Source: Vulcanimicrobiota bacterium
GTDB taxonomy: Bacteria > Vulcanimicrobiota > Vulcanimicrobiia > Vulcanimicrobiales > Vulcanimicrobiaceae
NCBI GenBank assembly: GCA_963795855.1
Contig: CAWCIZ010000001.1
Span: forward strand, 352,001-416,000
Reading direction: 5' to 3'
DNA: 64,000 nt
The position numbers were made by a program, and so were the translations under genes. The notes beneath the pieces were generated by a model that saw only the letters and a list, made by a program, of their open reading frames with translations, did not search any database and was not told the origin of the DNA. Of this stretch, positions 37,886 through 51,134 are shown piece after piece. Position 1 is the first letter of the stretch; every line of letters starts with the position of its first letter.

Positions 37886-39458
37886 GTGTTACTTGAGCGC
37901 CCGATGCGGGCCGAGCATGGAGAGGTCCGGACCCAGGCGCAGGGGCGCGTCCTGGCGCGCTACATCCCTTGGATCGCAGCCGGCTTAACGCTGGCCCTGC
38001 ACGTAGGAGGCAACCCGCACTACGGGTTCTTCCGCGACGAGATCTACTTCATCATCTGCGGCTTTCGTCCGGACGTCGGTTACGTCGATCAGCCCTCGCT
38101 CGTTCCGCTGCTCGCCGCGTTCTCGCAAGGATTCGGGGTCTCGCTCTTCGCGCTGCGCGTCATGCCCGCAATCTTTGCAGCGCTCACGACGTTCGTCGCG
38201 GCGCGGCTTGCAATCGAGTTCGGCGGCGGCCGCTTCGCCATCATCATCGCGGCGCTCGTGACGACGTTCGCACCGGAGATGCTGGCGTTCGGATCGCGCC
38301 TTTCGCCCGACACGATCGAAATGGCGGTTTGGCCTTTGATGGCGCTGGTCGCGTACCGCATCGTGCGCGGCGGAGACGAGCGATTGTGGCTGCTCTTCGG
38401 GCTGCTCACGGCGTTCGGCTGGTGGAGTAAGTACAGCGTCGCATTTTTCGCGGCGGCGCTCGTGATCGGACTGCTGCTCACCCCGCAGCGCCGCGTCTTG
38501 CGTACGCCATGGTTCGGCGTATGGACTTGCGTTGTGCGCGCTCCTGATCGCTCCGAACGTTTGGTGGCAATGGCACTACGATTTCCCGATGCTGCAGCTG
38601 CTGCACAACGACTACGACAAGTTCATGCTCAAATGGCCGCCGTTCCCGCTGCAGCAAATCATGGTGATGAGCCCGCTGCTCTCCATCGTTTGGCTGATCG
38701 GCCTCGGATGGCTGTTCGCCAATGTGCGCACGCGGTTTCTGGCATACGCATACGCGGCGTTGATCGCAATGATGTGGGCCGGCGATGCTAAGGCGTATTA
38801 CCCTGCACCGGTTTATGCGTATCTGATCGCGGCGGGCGCCGTGCCGATCGAGCGCTGGACCGGCATCCGGCACGGATGGCGCGCGGCAATCGTCGCCGTG
38901 GTTATCGCGTTCGCAATTCCGTCCACGCCGTTCGTGCTGCCGATCGTGCCTATGACCACATACATAAAATATCAAGTGGTGCTCGGCAATCTCTTCCATA
39001 TCAATTTTCACGTCGGCGACGCCGGCAATGCGACGCCGATTCAGTACTACGCCGACATGACCGGCTGGCCGCAGCTCGAACAGCGAGTCGCGGACGTTTA
39101 CCGCGGTTTACCGCCGTCCGAACGCGCCGGCGCCGCGATCTACGCGCACAACTTCGGTGAGGCTGCGGCGATCGATCTGTACGGCGCCGCCGAGAAACTT
39201 CCGCCCGCGCTGAGCGGCAACAACAACTACTGGCTTTGGGGCACGCATGGGTACACCGGCGCCGTCGTAATCGACGTCAACGGGCGCGAACTGCTGCCGT
39301 ACTACCGTTCCGTGCAAAGCGTCGGCACATTCTACAACCCGCTGGCGATGCCGTACGAAAACAATCTCCCGATCTGGATCCTGCGCGACCCGAAAGTCCC
39401 GCTTTCTGCAATCTGGCCCCATCTCAAGAACTATTCCTACGCTTTCGGCGGCCTGTGA
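37886..39458 (+). CDS. GT39/ArnT-like membrane glycosyltransferase (frameshift near 38520)
   Basis: FRDEIYF, GYVDQP, SKY, PNVWWQ, NFGEAAA, SGNNNYWLWG; multi-TM. Confidence 0.85.
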
Positions 39459-39462
39459 TGTG

Positions 39463-39698
39463 CGCTCGTATGCCGTCGCGTGCGGGTGGGCAGGCGACAT
39501 GTTGAGGCGGGAACATGGCCCGATCGACCTCCTGTCGAGCGGGCCATTCAGGACATCCGGATTTTTTCGAAAACAAGTTTTGTAACGGACCTCCTGTCCG
39601 GCGAAAAAATCCGGAACGTCCCGCCTCAACACGCCGCCCGCCCACCCGCACGCTGCGGCACACTCGCTTGGTGGTGAAGCGCAGAAACGTTCCGAACC
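39463..39698 (-). ncRNA. Putative structured sRNA 1 with two AGGAG hairpin loops (candidate CsrA sponge)
   Basis: A 33-bp stem (39480-39512 with 39619-39651) has three mismatches, all G-U pairs on the minus strand. Inner hairpins have AGGAG loops at 39529-39533 and 39591-39595. A sigma28-like promoter lies upstream. Ends are approximate. Confidence 0.7.
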
Positions 39699-39704
39699 CT
39701 CTTG

Positions 39705-39731
39705 TAGTCGGCTTGTCACGCGTTGCACTTG
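39705..39731 (-). promoter_or_regulatory. sigma28-like promoter pointing into sRNA 1
   Basis: Minus strand CAAG-N15-GCCGACTA. Confidence 0.55.
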
Positions 39732-39897
39732 CTCGCGGGTTTTCTTCATTGTTTTTGCTCTCCGCTCTAACCGCGCTCATTCAAAAAAAGACGTCTCCGT
39801 AGTGATTGCGCGTTCGGCCATTCTTCATTTTGCAGGCTCCGTTATTTGTAAATTTTCTTGAACGGAACATCGATCGGCATGTGGGCACCGCTTGGCG

Positions 39898-40168
39898 TGG
39901 GGCGCACGTCTCGAGTCGCAGCGGTTGAACGGCGCGGCCTCGCTTTCGTAGCGAGCGCGACGTCCGACGTGGGAGGGATGACCGGGCGCTGCGGGACGTT
40001 CCGGATTTTCGGCCCAGCCAGGACGGCTGTTTCAAATCTTTGATTTGCCGAAAATCCGGATGTCCTGAATGACGCGCTCGACAGGACGTCGATCGCGGCA
40101 TGCTCCCGCAGCGCTCGGTCATCCGTCTCACGCCGAGACGAAACCGCTGCGTTAGCCCCCGCGCCCCA
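39898..40168 (+). ncRNA. Putative structured sRNA 2, homolog of sRNA 1, with two AGGAC hairpin loops
   Basis: Core 39991-40109 is homologous to the reverse complement of 39507-39624 with compensatory stem changes. Closing stem 39961-39996 pairs with 40104-40140. Loops at 40020-40024 and 40083-40087. Ends are approximate. Confidence 0.7.
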
Positions 40169-40201
40169 TCGACGCAGCACCCCAGCCGCGGGCGAGAAGG
40201 C

Positions 40202-40228
40202 TAAAGTCAAGCAACCACATGCCGATAG
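40202..40228 (+). promoter_or_regulatory. sigma28 promoter of the flgF operon
   Basis: TAAA-N15-GCCGATAG, near consensus. Confidence 0.8.
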
Positions 40229-40355
40229 ATTGAAGTGAACGCGGCTGGACTGCCTCTCGCACGGGCGGGAGCCGCGGCGGAACCTGATTGATTGACGGTT
40301 TCGCGGTGCGCGGCGGATGCGCCGAGTACGACCCGATCGTGCGGAGGTTTTACTT

Positions 40356-41138
40356 TTGGTACGTGGACTTTATACTGCGGCATCGGGAGCGCTGGTAGCA
40401 CAGTCGCAGGCGGACGTGATCGCCAACAACCTGGCCAACGTAAACACGAGCGGGTTCAAGCGTACGCTGCTGCAGGTGCAGGCCGGCCCGGAGATGGGCA
40501 TTTATCGCCGCCAGACCGATCCCGGCAATCCGCGCGGCACGTCCAGCAGCGATTTCGTCGGCGCGCTCGGTTCCGGTGCGCAAGTGCTGGATACGCCGGC
40601 GGTGTTCGAACAAGGCACGCTCGGCCAAACCGGAAATCCGCTTGACCTTGCGATTCAAGGCAACGCGTTTTTTGCGATTCAAACGCCGCAGGGCGTTCGT
40701 TACACGCGCGACGGACAGTTTTCCGAAGATCCCAACGGCCGTCTCGTTACCATGGACGGCGACGCCGTGCTCGGCGCCAACGGTGCGGTGCAACTGCAGC
40801 CTACCGGCGGAGCCGTGCAGGTCGACGAAAGCGGCCGCATCACGCAGAACGGCCGGCTCGTCGATTCGCTCTCGCTGGTGCAATTCGCGAATCCCGCGCA
40901 AGTGCGCCCCGAAGGCGACAATCGTTTCGTCGCGACGAACGCCGCGCTGCCCGCGGCCGCGACGGCCGGTTCGACGGTTCACCAAGGTTTTCTCGAGCGA
41001 AGCAATGCGAACGTCGTGCGTTCGATGGTCGATTTGATCACGGCGCAGCGCTGGTTCGAAGCAAATCAAAAAGTCATGCAAACACAAGATCAGGCCAACG
41101 GCTGGGCGATCGAAACGGTCGCCAACAGCCAGAAGTAA
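40356..41138 (+). CDS. flgF: Flagellar rod protein FlgF
   Basis: GGAGG SD, TTG start, GLYTAASG...NLANVNTSGFK, YTRDG, LERSNANVV. Confidence 0.88.
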   Translation: MVRGLYTAASGALVAQSQADVIANNLANVNTSGFKRTLLQVQAGPEMGIYRRQTDPGNPRGTSSSDFVGALGSGAQVLDTPAVFEQGTLGQTGNPLDLAIQGNAFFAIQTPQGVRYTRDGQFSEDPNGRLVTMDGDAVLGANGAVQLQPTGGAVQVDESGRITQNGRLVDSLSLVQFANPAQVRPEGDNRFVATNAALPAAATAGSTVHQGFLERSNANVVRSMVDLITAQRWFEANQKVMQTQDQANGWAIETVANSQK

Positions 41139-48996: not shown

Positions 48997-49485
48997 ATGG
49001 AAAGCACGATGGAGTCCACGCAGACGATGACGGTCGTCACGAACCGCTTCGGAAAAGTGACGTTCACCGAATCGGACGTGTTCGTGTTTCCGTGGGGTCT
49101 GCCGGGCTTTTCGGACCTGCGCCGTTTTCTCGCGCTCTCGCTTGCCGAACAGCCCAATTTCGTGTGGCTCCAGTCGCTCGAGGATCCCAACATCGCTCTT
49201 CCCGCGGCGGATCCGTGGCAGCTCTTTCCGGACTATGAGCCGCGAATGCCGTCCTACGCGACCGAAGCGCTCGAACTGCACAGCGCCGAGGACTTCACGA
49301 TCCTTTGCATCGTGGTGGTGACCAAAGACGCCGAAGAGATGACGATGAACCTGATGGCGCCGGTCGTGCTGAATCTGAAGACGCGCCGCGCCCGTCAGGT
49401 GATGCTGGAAAATTCCGCCTATTCGGTCCGGACCGCTCTTCCCCGAAAGCCCGTGGAGGCACAAGGCACCGCCCAGCCGGCGTAG
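48997..49485 (+). CDS. fliW: Flagellar assembly factor FliW (CsrA antagonist)
   Basis: RFG...FPWGLPGF...WLQS...DP...Y...TMNLMAPVVLN. Confidence 0.93.
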   Translation: MESTMESTQTMTVVTNRFGKVTFTESDVFVFPWGLPGFSDLRRFLALSLAEQPNFVWLQSLEDPNIALPAADPWQLFPDYEPRMPSYATEALELHSAEDFTILCIVVVTKDAEEMTMNLMAPVVLNLKTRRARQVMLENSAYSVRTALPRKPVEAQGTAQPA

Positions 49486-49515: not shown

Positions 49516-49788
49516 ATGCTAGTCCTGAGCCGGAAAGTCAACCAGTCCATCATGGTGGGCGACAACGTCCGCGTGGTGGTCGTCGCTGTCGACCGCGACC
49601 AGGTCAAACTGGGCATCGAGGCGCCGCGTGAAATCGCGGTCCACCGGTCGGAAATCTACGAAGAGATTCAGCGCACCAACCGTTCCGCCGCAGCCGGTGA
49701 AGCGCCGTCCGCCGCGTCGGGTCCGGTCGTGACGCGCGCCACGCTGCAGCCCCGAAAAAAATCTTCCAAACCGGCAAAGAACCGCTAA
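49516..49788 (+). CDS. csrA: Carbon storage regulator CsrA
   Basis: MLVLSRK.NQSIMVGD...VKLGIEAPREIAVHRSEIY..IQ..N; has the C-terminal extension typical of FliW-regulated CsrA. Confidence 0.96.
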   Translation: MLVLSRKVNQSIMVGDNVRVVVVAVDRDQVKLGIEAPREIAVHRSEIYEEIQRTNRSAAAGEAPSAASGPVVTRATLQPRKKSSKPAKNR

Positions 49789-49816: not shown

Positions 49817-49880
49817 ATGGAAGGGGACAGGACGTCTCCCTCGACTAGTCATTAGCACACGCGTGTTAATCATGGAGGAA
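49817..49880 (+). promoter_or_regulatory. Putative CsrA-binding sites in the flagellin leader
   Basis: Hairpin GGGGAC-AGGAC-GTCTCC (49823-49839) and ATGGAGG overlapping the SD (49872-49878). Confidence 0.7.
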
Positions 49881-49882
49881 AC

Positions 49883-51134
49883 ATGCAAGGTCTCAGTATC
49901 GCCAACAACCTGTTGGCCAACAGCGTTCAGTACAACCTGAACAACAACCAAGAAGCCCTTCGCAACACCGTTACGCAGTCTGTCCAGCGGTCTGCGCATC
50001 AACAGCGCTGCGGACGATCCGTCCGGTCTTGCGATCGCGACGAACCTGCAGACGCAAGTCGACGCGTTCCAGCAGGCCTCGCAGAACGTTCAGGACGCCA
50101 ACAACGCGGCGCAGGTTGCCGACGGCGCCCTCGCAACGGAAACCGACATTCTGCAGCGTATCCGCAGCCTCGCGGTGGAAGCGTCCAGCTCCATCAACAG
50201 CGCTTCGGACAATGCCAACCTGCAATCGGAAATCTCGCAGCTGCTGCTCGAGGTCAACCGCATTTCGCAGAACACGAACTTCAACGGCCAGGCGCTGCTC
50301 GACGGCAGCCATTCCGGCTTCCAGCCCTACACGAACGCGTCGTACACGGTCAGCTCGAACTCCGTTCTCGCTTCGGCGGGCGCAGCCGCGCTCTCGAAGA
50401 GCGGCGTTGCGGCCGGCGACCTCGTCGCCAGCGTGAGCACGACGGCGAACTTCAACACGACGGCCGCAGGCGGCGGCGTCGACGGCACGATCGAACTGCA
50501 GGTCATCAACACCAGCAGCACGACCGTGGCCGTTCAGGTTTCGTTCTTCTCGAGCAGCAACTCGAGCACGAGCGCGACCGCCAAAGTCGTGGCTGCCAAT
50601 GCGGGCGCGAACACGAAGGTCACCGTTGACGGCTTGACCATCACGGTCGGAAACGTGTCGCTGCAAGATGCCGGCACGACGGCCTACGTCAAAGTCAGCC
50701 AAGCCGTTGCTGCCAGCAGCTCGGCAGCAGGCCCGCTGACGATTCAGTCGGGCGCGAACGAAGGCGACACGGTCGCCGTCGGCATCCAGGCCACGAACGC
50801 GCAGACCCTGCGCATCTCGAACATCAACGTCGCCAACACGGCGTCGGGTGTTCTCGCGGCGGAAGACGCGGTCGGACAAGTCACCAACGCGCTGGACACG
50901 CTGCTCTCGCAGCGCGCACAGCTCGGCGCGGTCATCGTTCGCCTCAACGAAGATGCGAACAACGACAACGTCGCATCGGTGAATCTGCAGGCGTCGGAAT
51001 CCGCGATTCGCGACCTCAACGTCGGCCAGGCGACGACGCAATTCACGAAACTGCAAGTTCTCGTGCAAGTCGGCACCTCGGTCTTGGCGCAGTCGAACGC
51101 GAACGCGCAGTCGGTCCTCGGCCTCTTCCGTTAA
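49883..51134 (+). CDS. fliC: Flagellin (frameshift near 49979)
   Basis: The N-terminus joins LSSGLRINSAADDPSGLAI in a shifted frame; LQRIR.LA, TNFNG, ESAIRD, VLAQSN...VLGLFR. Confidence 0.95.

What the first reader, a model, noticed from the sequence alone, without database searches (positions are those of the whole stretch)
39463..40168. Divergent pair of homologous structured ncRNAs inside the flagellar cluster, each with two AGGA loops: candidate novel CsrA-sponge sRNAs
Seen in sequence: the ~900-bp non-coding gap holds a ~118-nt core twice in inverted orientation (39507-39624 minus; 39991-40109 plus). Both fold into the same multibranch structure: a long closing stem, a TCCGGATTTT/AAAATCCGGA stem and two hairpins with AGGAG or AGGAC pentaloops. 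Stems differ by compensatory changes (CGGAC/GTCCG vs CAGCC/GGCTG; ATGGCCCG/CGGGCCAT vs ATGACGCG/CGCGGCAT) while the AGGA loops are kept. The outer closing stems are unrelated in sequence yet both pair. In copy 1 all three stem mismatches are G-U on the strand that displays the GGA loops. Established: CsrA/RsmA dimers bind two GGA hairpin loops, and CsrB/RsmZ-type sponges are characterised in Gammaproteobacteria, whereas fliW-csrA lineages such as Bacillus subtilis rely on FliW. Inference: these are sRNA antagonists of the CsrA encoded ~9 kb downstream, coexisting with FliW. Their rigid two-site architecture is unlike CsrB.
Basis: partly seen in the sequence, partly recalled or inferred. Interest (0 to 1): 0.9.

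Follow-up and report, generated by a model that had tools for sequence, protein, structure and literature searches.

The report
Dispersed structured RNA repeat with CsrA-like loops
The two mirror-image folded elements between flagellar genes are real, but they are two of at least eleven copies of a scattered repeat family found only in one bacterial family, whose two hairpin loops look like docking sites for the regulator protein CsrA.

Summary
Two about 120-nt cores (39503-39628 minus, 39987-40113 plus) are 81% identical. Each sits inside its own long closing helix, and each has two hairpins with AGGAG or AGGAC loops.

They are not flagellar-cluster-specific sRNA genes. A covariance model finds 11 copies in this genome and 1-38 copies in 28 of 61 genomes of the same taxonomic family. 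It finds none in 76 genomes of 20 other families of the phylum. The named relatives are Eremiobacterota of the family Baltobacteraceae. Copies lie between housekeeping genes in either orientation, differ in position among congeners, and have no conserved promoter or terminator.

The structure is nevertheless under selection:
- 41 of 44 pairs covary.
- In the outer helix, G.U outnumbers A.C 64 to 9 on the GGA strand.

Both loops carry CA(N)GGANG, the CsrB/SELEX-type CsrA motif. The same motifs sit in this genome's flagellin leaders.

My best reading is a dispersed CsrA-binding RNA module; binding and expression are untested. The outer helix arms are unique to each copy even when the cores are 98% identical. 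I cannot explain this.

The parts
39468..39663 (-). Copy 1, whole element: a 45-bp outer closing helix P1 (arms 39468-39512 and 39619-39663) around the core.
   Evidence: I3, 87% complementary; fold, z -13.0; 4 G.U, 1 C.A, 1 A.G
39503..39628 (-). Copy 1 core as matched by the covariance models. It comprises inner P1, P2, P2a, P2b and P3.
   Evidence: R1, E 1.8e-21; 100.4 bits; R2, 85.4 bits
39556..39615 (-). Copy 1 P2. The A/U-rich stem TCCGGATTTTTTCG/CGAAAAAATCCGGA encloses P2a (39586-39600, loop AGGAG on the minus strand, motif CAGGAGG) and P2b (39569-39582, CAAAAC-UU-GUUUUC).
   Evidence: I8, 14 nt 100%
39515..39547 (-). Copy 1 P3 hairpin. The loop is AGGAG on the minus strand (motif CAGGAGG).
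   Evidence: I9
39965..40135 (+). Copy 2, whole element: a 32-bp outer closing helix P1 (arms 39965-39996 and 40104-40135) around the core.
   Evidence: I4, 88%; z -9.7
39987..40113 (+). Copy 2 core as matched by the covariance models.
   Evidence: E 1.3e-21; 100.9 bits
40000..40060 (+). Copy 2 P2. The stem encloses P2a (40015-40029, loop AGGAC, motif CAGGACG) and P2b (40033-40047, CAAAUC-UUU-GAUUUG, which is compensatory relative to copy 1).
   Evidence: I7, 14 nt 100%
40069..40101 (+). Copy 2 P3 hairpin, loop AGGAC (motif CAGGACG).
39664..39964 (.). Spacer between the two divergently oriented copies. It is less G+C-rich and has no Pfam-matching ORF. It is absent from the congener with the minimal gap.
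40202..40228 (+). Sigma-28-like box TAAA-N15-GCCGATAG upstream of flgF. It lies downstream of copy 2, so it does not drive copy 2. The consensus is recalled, not taken from a call.
   Evidence: 1 match in the window, 0.28 expected by chance; conserved position in the congener's short gap
49516..49788 (+). csrA (90 aa), directly after fliW (48997-49485). It is the proposed protein partner.
   Evidence: PF02599, 87.6 bits
49823..49879 (+). Flagellin leader. It holds the hairpin GGGGAC-AGGAC-GUCUCCC (49823-49840) and CAUGGAGGA over the Shine-Dalgarno (49871-49879). These are the same motif types as the element's loops.

Best explanation
The two elements are members of a lineage-restricted, genome-dispersed family of structured RNA modules.

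Architecture of one module:
- A long closing helix P1, about 20-58 bp, with arms that are locus-specific in sequence.
- A three-way junction.
- An A/U-rich helix P2 that carries a small hairpin P2a and a mini-hairpin P2b.
- A second hairpin P3.
- P2a and P3 each present CA(N)GGANG in the loop.

What is shown: the fold is conserved by compensatory change, and selection acts on the strand that displays GGA.

What is inferred:
- Each module binds one CsrA dimer through its two GGA hairpins. The modules would then act as decoys or titrators embedded in many transcripts, or as local CsrA recruiters.
- They would work alongside FliW. They mimic the two CsrA-type sites in the flagellin mRNA leader.
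- The long P1 helix could serve as a stabilising clamp or as an RNase III processing site that frees the module from its host transcript.

The pair in the window is one instance of a recurrent divergent-pair arrangement. It is not a flagellum-specific invention.
For: Family and structure:
- Model R1 finds 11 copies in G000, and copies in 28 of 61 genomes of the same family.
- In the phylum sample, 25 of 44 genomes of the same family have matches and 0 of 76 genomes in 20 other families do.
- On 45 aligned copies, 90.4% of cells pair against 61.3% in shuffles and 36-49% when partners are slid. 41 of 44 pairs show changes on both sides. On the MAFFT-only alignment of 13 copies, 27 of 31 pairs do.

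Strand:
- The test used the outer P1, which lies outside the model, with symmetric scoring. In 50 copies there are 1045 Watson-Crick pairs, 64 G.U, 9 A.C and 26 transversion mismatches. The binomial p for 64 against 9 is 2.4e-11.
- The bias holds both for copies antisense to both neighbours (16:2) and for copies sense to the upstream gene (15:3).

Motif:
- CA(N)GGANG occurs 76 times on the GGA strand and 3 times on the other strand in 50 copies. It is at the P2a loop in 39 of 50, at the P3 loop in 35 of 50, and at both in 26 of 50.
- Two diverged relatives that the models miss keep the long P1 and two GGA-loop hairpins.
- The review PMC7652899 (passages read) gives the CsrB repeat as CAGGA(U/A/C)G, the SELEX consensus as RUACARGGAUGU and ANGGAN loops.

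Internal mimicry: the window's flagellin leader has a GACAGGACGUC hairpin and CAUGGAGGA over the SD. A second flagellin leader has ACAGGGA and CACGGAGGAAG.

Partner genes: csrA and fliW are present.
Against: - No transcript evidence: no RNA run holds the stretch.
- No conserved promoter or terminator flanks the copies.
- Roughly half of the copies lie antisense to both neighbouring genes. My crude calls give AA 12, SS 6, SA 5, AS 0 and 27 partial or unknown. The GGA strand would then need antisense transcription.
- 11 of 50 copies lack the strict motif at P2a and 15 of 50 lack it at P3. Some P3 loops read CGA instead of GGA.
- P3 stems are longer than the 4 bp or fewer typical of SELEX ligands.
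- csrA presence does not track element presence. csrA is found in 22 of 28 genomes with the element and 28 of 33 without it.
- One genome (G060, 94% complete) has fliW abutting flagellin with no csrA, yet has 2 copies.
- The G.U excess would also fit a folded single-stranded DNA intermediate.
Confidence: 0.5

Rival explanations
1. A REP/ERIC/MITE-like selfish or structural intergenic repeat. It would spread at the DNA level, perhaps through a single-stranded intermediate of the GGA strand. At most it would act as a generic RNA hairpin (mRNA 3'-end protection, insulation or termination). The GGA loops would serve its own mobilising factor or some other protein, not CsrA.
For: - It is dispersed and multi-copy, with a patchy distribution: 27 of 60 genera, 1-38 copies.
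- There are presence/absence polymorphisms among congeners at greA-lysS, holB and namZ.
- Copies lie in either orientation relative to neighbours and none lies between divergent genes (AS 0).
- Core pairs in one genome are up to 98% identical, which points to recent copying or gene conversion.
- Close pairs are always minus-then-plus: 11 pairs in 6 genomes among the matches listed.
Against: - No Y1/RAYT transposase in G000 or in five copy-rich genomes that are 93-97% complete.
- The outer inverted repeats are not shared between copies, unlike the terminal repeats of a MITE.
- No clear target-site duplication.
- The near-invariant CA(N)GGANG in both loops across subfamilies, and in diverged relatives, is left unexplained.
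- No U-tract terminators.
Confidence: 0.3
2. Shine-Dalgarno mimics. The loops would pair with the 3' end of 16S rRNA and sequester or load 30S subunits.
For: Some loops read GGAGG. CAGGAGG or CAUGGAGG make up 12 of 76 motif instances, and both loops of window copy 1 are of this kind.
Against: - Most loops read GGAUG or GGACG, which are poor SDs: 64 of 76 instances are not GGAGG.
- The conserved flanking CA and G fit the CsrA consensus rather than an SD.
- No start codon or ORF follows.
Confidence: 0.05
3. One reading: two dedicated, independently transcribed sRNA genes of the flagellar regulon that sponge CsrA.
For: - The location is inside the flagellar cluster, and 3 of about 15 family members in G000 lie in flagellar loci.
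- A GCCGATCG box resembling the flgF sigma-28 -10 element lies on the minus strand at 39869-39884, upstream of copy 1 (I5).
Against: - Most copies are elsewhere.
- One congener lacks the whole insert and another has a single copy.
- There is no -35 TAAA for that box, no terminator, and no conserved flanking motif across 47 copies.
Confidence: 0.05

Closest known systems
CsrB/CsrC/RsmX/RsmY/RsmZ CsrA-sequestering sRNAs (Gammaproteobacteria)
   Same: Both have hairpin loops that carry CAGGA(U/A/C)G / ANGGAN motifs, the form CsrA binds (review passages). Two sites per module would suit one CsrA dimer.
   Different: - No Rfam match.
- Exactly two sites on a rigid three-way junction closed by a 20-58-bp helix, instead of many loosely linked hairpins.
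- No promoter or terminator of its own.
- 11 or more dispersed copies per genome rather than 1-3 dedicated genes.
- The host lineage has FliW.
REP/BIME, ERIC and Correia-type intergenic repeats
   Same: These are also dispersed intergenic copies, often inside operons, in either orientation, variable between relatives and folding as hairpins in RNA.
   Different: - Here only the inner core of about 118 nt is shared. The outer 20-40 bp of the hairpin is different at every locus.
- No RAYT gene.
- Both loops carry a protein-binding-type motif.
- A strong G.U over A.C asymmetry marks one functional strand.
Flagellin mRNA leader of FliW-CsrA systems (B. subtilis hag, C. jejuni flaA)
   Same: Two CsrA-type sites, one in a hairpin loop and one over the SD. 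The C. jejuni flaA mRNA is reported as dual-function; I saw the title and the start of the abstract of PMC4894983 in a search listing. This genome's flagellin leaders carry the same motif types as the elements.
   Different: The elements are non-coding, dispersed and closed by a long helix. Neither GGA site overlaps a ribosome-binding site.

Membership tests
CsrB/Rsm-type sponge sRNA | Match to a curated Rfam model of the Csr/Rsm sRNA families | tested here: not met
   In window 38500-41000 at E<=10, cmscan gave only miRNA-hairpin noise and one weak leader hit. Ten other family loci gave 0 matches at gathering score.
CsrB/Rsm-type sponge sRNA | GGA motifs exposed in hairpin loops | tested here: met
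   Both window copies have two CAGGA(G/C)G loops. Across 50 copies there are 76 motif instances on the GGA strand against 3 on the other strand.
CsrB/Rsm-type sponge sRNA | Independent gene with its own promoter and intrinsic terminator | tested here: not met
   No promoter-like site upstream of either copy and 0 terminator-like sites in 39300-40400. No shared k-mer or motif in the 120 nt flanking 47 copies.
CsrB/Rsm-type sponge sRNA | Binds and sequesters CsrA | not testable with these tools
   Needs EMSA, ITC or CLIP with the CsrA encoded at 49516-49788.
REP/REPIN with RAYT | Many dispersed intergenic copies | tested here: met
   11 (R1) or 13 (R2) matches in G000, and up to 38 in a relative.
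REP/REPIN with RAYT | A Y1 (RAYT) transposase gene in the genome | tested here: not met
   PF01797 gave 0 matches in G000 (86% complete) and 0 of 5 in copy-rich genomes that are 93-97% complete. The controls gave matches.
MITE | Terminal inverted repeats shared by all copies | tested here: not met
   Outer P1 arms are unrelated between copies whose cores are 93-98% identical: local alignment score 5-9 for arms of 27-34 nt.
MITE | Target-site duplication at filled versus empty sites | tested here: inconclusive
   The holB site has GGTAGG on both sides of the insert, overlapping a stop codon. The namZ site shows none. The greA site shows a possible 8-10-nt direct repeat.
Intrinsic terminator | G+C-rich stem followed by a U tract | tested here: not met
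   0 terminator-like sites in 39300-40400. No T runs after the 3' arms.
FliW-CsrA-flagellin partner-switch module (context) | fliW next to csrA, next to a flagellin gene whose leader carries GGA sites | tested here: met
   FliW (PF02623) is at 48997-49485 and csrA at 49516-49788. The flagellin starts at 49883, with a leader hairpin AGGAC loop and CAUGGAGGA at the SD.

The most novel reading that the evidence does not exclude
A distributed CsrA sponge. Dozens of dual-site decoy modules would be scattered through housekeeping and flagellar transcripts of a FliW-bearing lineage. Each would be cut out or stabilised through a long, sequence-free helix. CsrA availability would then be coupled to bulk transcription rather than to one or two dedicated sRNA genes.

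Linked to this is a way of spreading in which a core of about 118 nt arrives at a new locus and ends up flanked by a new, locus-specific perfect inverted repeat of 20-40 bp. No known transposition mechanism produces that.
Probability: 0.2. Interest if true: 0.85.

Novelty: new variant of a known kind. Interest (0 to 1): 0.62.

Why it matters
RNA antagonists of CsrA are characterised in Gammaproteobacteria, while FliW-type lineages are thought to rely on a protein antagonist (review passages; listing abstract of PMC4894983). If this repeat family binds CsrA, it would be a new architecture for titrating a global regulator: many small dual-site modules embedded in other transcripts. It would also show RNA antagonists and FliW coexisting, in a largely uncultured phylum.

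Apart from CsrA, the family is an undescribed structured RNA with strong covariation. It accounts for every long inverted repeat found in this genome: 8 of 9 are model hits and the ninth is a diverged relative. The combination of near-identical cores with unrelated flanking helices raises a concrete question about how such elements are copied.

Tried and rejected
- Rfam: no family matched.
- RNA evidence: no RNA holder was listed for window 39300-40400.
- csrA co-occurrence was inconclusive. Six genomes have the element but no csrA hit. In four of them the contig ends 0.8-4.5 kb after flgI, so the fliW-csrA stretch is simply not assembled.
- Promoter and terminator scans, and k-mer enrichment in the flanks of 47 copies, found nothing shared.
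- P1 arms as guides or spacers: the arms of the 11 G000 copies have no second match in the genome beyond shuffled controls (best mean 28.5 against 26.9 bits). Two 24-nt arm stretches have no exact match in viral contigs.
- Core pattern in viral contigs: 8 exact hits, and 0 of 8 match model R2, so they are chance. Likewise 0 of 5 tested pattern hits in other phyla match. The pattern is expected about 35 times by chance in that collection.
- Pre-existing palindromes as insertion targets: G000 has no long inverted repeat (score >=20, spacer <=260) other than the elements.
- Transposon cargo between paired copies: the 2.3-kb interval C3:1056416-1058850 holds what I read from the translations as nuoE and nuoF (no Pfam scan). 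Short pairs enclose 100-600 nt, and by my reading of the printed sequence some of these look like small housekeeping genes.
- Earlier notes of this scan: none for this genome or sequence.
- I considered hammerhead and twister ribozymes, ANTAR targets, retron msr/msd and attC sites by eye. I dropped them because their defining motifs or partner genes are missing. No formal test was run beyond Rfam.

Full report
OBSERVATION

The gap between a PMT_2 glycosyltransferase ORF (ending at 39458) and flgF (starting at 40317) is 858 nt. It holds two inverted copies of a core of about 118 nt.
- The repeat finder reports arms 39507-39576/40040-40109 (84% complementary) and 39575-39624/39991-40040 (78%). 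BLAST gives 81% identity.
- Each core is enclosed by its own long inverted repeat: 39468-39512/39619-39663 (45 nt, 87%) and 39965-39996/40104-40135 (32 nt, 88%). The two are unrelated in sequence.
- The GGA-displaying strands fold into the same multibranch shape far better than shuffles do (z -13.0 and -9.7).
The TCCGGATTTT stems are exact. The pentaloops are AGGAG (copy 1) and AGGAC (copy 2). The three mismatches of the inner 35 bp of copy 1's closing stem are all G.U.

CONTEXT

The window carries flgB, flgC, fliE and the glycosyltransferase, then the gap, then flgF, flgG, flgA, flgH, flgI, a rod-binding protein, flgK, a flagellin-family gene, fliW, csrA and a flagellin. A sigma-28-like box (consensus recalled) lies at 40202-40228, downstream of copy 2.

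NOT A PRIVATE PAIR

BLAST found only these two copies plus one partial relative in the genome. It did find relatives in congeneric genomes at unrelated loci: gltX/methylmalonyl-CoA mutase, holB, dxr-cdsA, namZ/pilZ, fliP-fliR, greA-lysS, uppP and argG.

I built a covariance model (R1) from 13 copies.
- R1 finds 11 matches in G000 and matches in 28 of 61 sampled genomes of the same family, with 1-38 per genome.
- In a phylum-wide sample, 25 of 44 genomes of the same family have matches, against 0 of 76 in 20 other families.
- A second model, R2, built from 45 aligned copies, gives 13 matches in G000.
- Two further diverged relatives are missed by both models. They have a long closing helix and two GGA-loop hairpins but no P2b. 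They lie at the gltX gap and at C2:642431-642582.

A pattern scan of named genomes returns mostly Candidatus Eremiobacterota / Vulcanimicrobiota, Baltobacteraceae and Ca. Cybelea records. The scattered hits in other phyla are chance: about 35 are expected, and 0 of 5 tested match the model.

In G000 the other copies lie beside recA, an MgsA-type ATPase, an acyl-CoA dehydrogenase, a P450, between the E1 and E2 dehydrogenase components, between lipB and lpd, beside sufBD, between greA and lysS, and after fliP. Two more flank genes that I read from the translations as nuoE and nuoF.

The tallies include genomes flagged as unpublished. L059, from one of them, is 1 of 45 rows in alignment A2.

THE GLYCOSYLTRANSFERASE-flgF GAP VARIES AMONG CONGENERS

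- One congener has about 37 nt between the stop codon and the sigma-28-like box (about 62 nt between the aligned flanks).
- One has 291 nt with a single copy, on the flgF strand.
- One has 622 nt with a DUF4760 ORF.
- Two have about 2 kb with a 556-aa ORF of no known family.

A REAL STRUCTURE, ON ONE STRAND

- On the MAFFT-only alignment, 27 of 31 RNAalifold pairs show compensatory change.
- On the model-fitted alignment of 45 copies, 90.4% of cells pair, against 61.3% in shuffles and 36-49% with slid partners. 41 of 44 pairs have changes on both sides. That alignment leans towards the model.
- An independent test uses the outer part of P1, which lies outside the model, scored symmetrically. 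In 50 copies there are 1045 Watson-Crick pairs, 64 G.U, 9 A.C and 26 transversion mismatches (binomial p 2.4e-11).
- The excess holds for copies antisense to both neighbours (16:2) and for copies sense to the upstream gene (15:3).
- Neighbouring copies in one operon have opposite orientations.
- A bias tied to replication or to host-gene transcription is therefore an unlikely cause. A folded single-stranded DNA of that strand would give the same signature as RNA.

THE LOOPS

- CA(N)GGANG occurs 76 times on the GGA strand and 3 times on the complement in 50 copies. It is at P2a in 39, at P3 in 35 and at both in 26.
- The commonest forms are CAGGAUG and CAUGGAUG.
- The CsrA review (passages read) gives CAGGA(U/A/C)G as the CsrB repeat, RUACARGGAUGU as the SELEX consensus and ANGGAN as the bound loop.
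- This genome's own flagellin leaders carry the same words. One has a GGGGAC-AGGAC-GUCUCCC hairpin and CAUGGAGGA over the SD (49823-49879). The other has ACAGGGA and CACGGAGGAAG.
- The modules therefore look like copies of the flagellin leader's two CsrA-type sites, mounted on a rigid scaffold.

AGAINST THE CsrA READING

- There are no transcript data.
- There is no promoter or terminator.
- Orientation relative to neighbours is mixed, and none of the copies lies between divergent genes (crude gene calls).
- A minority of loops read CGA.
- csrA is nearly universal in the family (50 of 61 genomes) and does not track the element: it is found in 22 of 28 genomes with the element and 28 of 33 without.
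- Four of the six genomes with the element but no csrA hit have contigs ending just after flgI, so that absence is uninformative.
- In G060, fliW abuts flagellin with no csrA, and two diverged copies with intact loops remain.

THE CLOSING HELIX IS THE ODD PART

- P1 totals about 12-58 bp (median about 33) and is unique at each locus.
- In one copy-rich genome, cores are 93-98% identical over about 118 nt. Homology stops sharply and symmetrically at the base of the core, and the outer arms (27-38 bp, nearly perfect) are unrelated.
- In G000 the only long inverted repeats in the genome are these elements: 8 of 9, the ninth being a diverged relative. There are therefore no empty palindromes that could serve as insertion targets.
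- At filled versus empty sites (holB, namZ, greA-lysS), both arms belong to the insert and neither resembles the flanks.
- The fliP-fliQ spacer is occupied in two congeners by copies of opposite orientation with unrelated arms.
- The gltX spacer is occupied in three congeners by three different subfamily members.
- Gene conversion of cores between old scaffolds, or a copying mechanism that builds a new inverted repeat, would both fit. I cannot tell them apart.
- No RAYT-type transposase is present.
- Among the matches listed, every two copies less than 1.3 kb apart (11 pairs in 6 genomes, including the window's) are ordered minus-then-plus. In several pairs of one genome the two P1 helices resemble each other (by eye).

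VERDICT

The pair belongs to a new, lineage-restricted, dispersed family of structured elements that act on the GGA strand. The idea of flagellar sRNA genes is rejected. The CsrA-binding idea survives at the level of the family, supported by motif identity and by mimicry of the flagellin leader, and remains untested.

No paper on such elements turned up in four searches. These covered CsrA/FliW/sponge/small RNA; Eremiobacterota/flagell; CsrA/repetitive extragenic/GGA; and Baltobacter/noncoding RNA.

Noticed in passing
window 37886-39458: The PMT_2 glycosyltransferase region reads as two overlapping ORFs (37886-38791 and 38532-39458). Only the first matches Pfam. This could be a frameshift or two genes.
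   Followed up: no
window 49883-51100 (G000:C1:401932-402309): The flagellin gene after csrA is read through one TGA in the genome search. The listed ORF 49883-50629 goes out of a flagellin-like frame after about 40 residues. This looks like a frameshift or an assembly error.
   Followed up: no
window 39468-39512 (minus) and 39965-39996 (plus): The 5' arms of both closing helices carry four G3 tracts each, for example GGGAGGGAUGACCGGGCGCUGCGGG. Across 50 copies the 5' arms are G-rich (714 G against 428 C). A G-quadruplex alternative to the helix is conceivable.
   Followed up: partly
window 39869-39884 versus 40215-40230: A 16-nt inverted repeat (94%) places a copy of the flgF promoter's CCACATGCCGAT box on the minus strand, upstream of copy 1, but with no TAAA at -35. 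GCCGATC also occurs in the spacers of 3 other divergent pairs (by eye).
   Followed up: partly
L194 (G003 greA-lysS spacer): At the site where G000 has a family member, this congener has a different hairpin of about 110 nt after the greA terminator. It has neither the core nor GGA loops.
   Followed up: no
L020:1290-1440 (G007 namZ-pilZ spacer): A tandem array of roughly three 35-nt units (TTCGATACCTCAGC...) lies directly upstream of the element and is absent from the empty site in G000.
   Followed up: no
L253 (G060:C28): fliW is followed after one base by the flagellin start codon, with no csrA between them. No csrA was found in that 94%-complete genome.
   Followed up: partly
L094, L102, L113, L134, L124: MAG records titled Candidatus Babeliales and Candidatus Acidiferrales carry strong matches to the element (81-101 bits) at 57-60% G+C. 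Their labels or binning may be wrong.
   Followed up: partly
L046, L047 (G007 and G004 glycosyltransferase-flgF gap): A 556-aa ORF with no Pfam match, on the strand opposite flgF, fills the same gap in two congeners. A DUF4760 ORF fills it in a third.
   Followed up: partly
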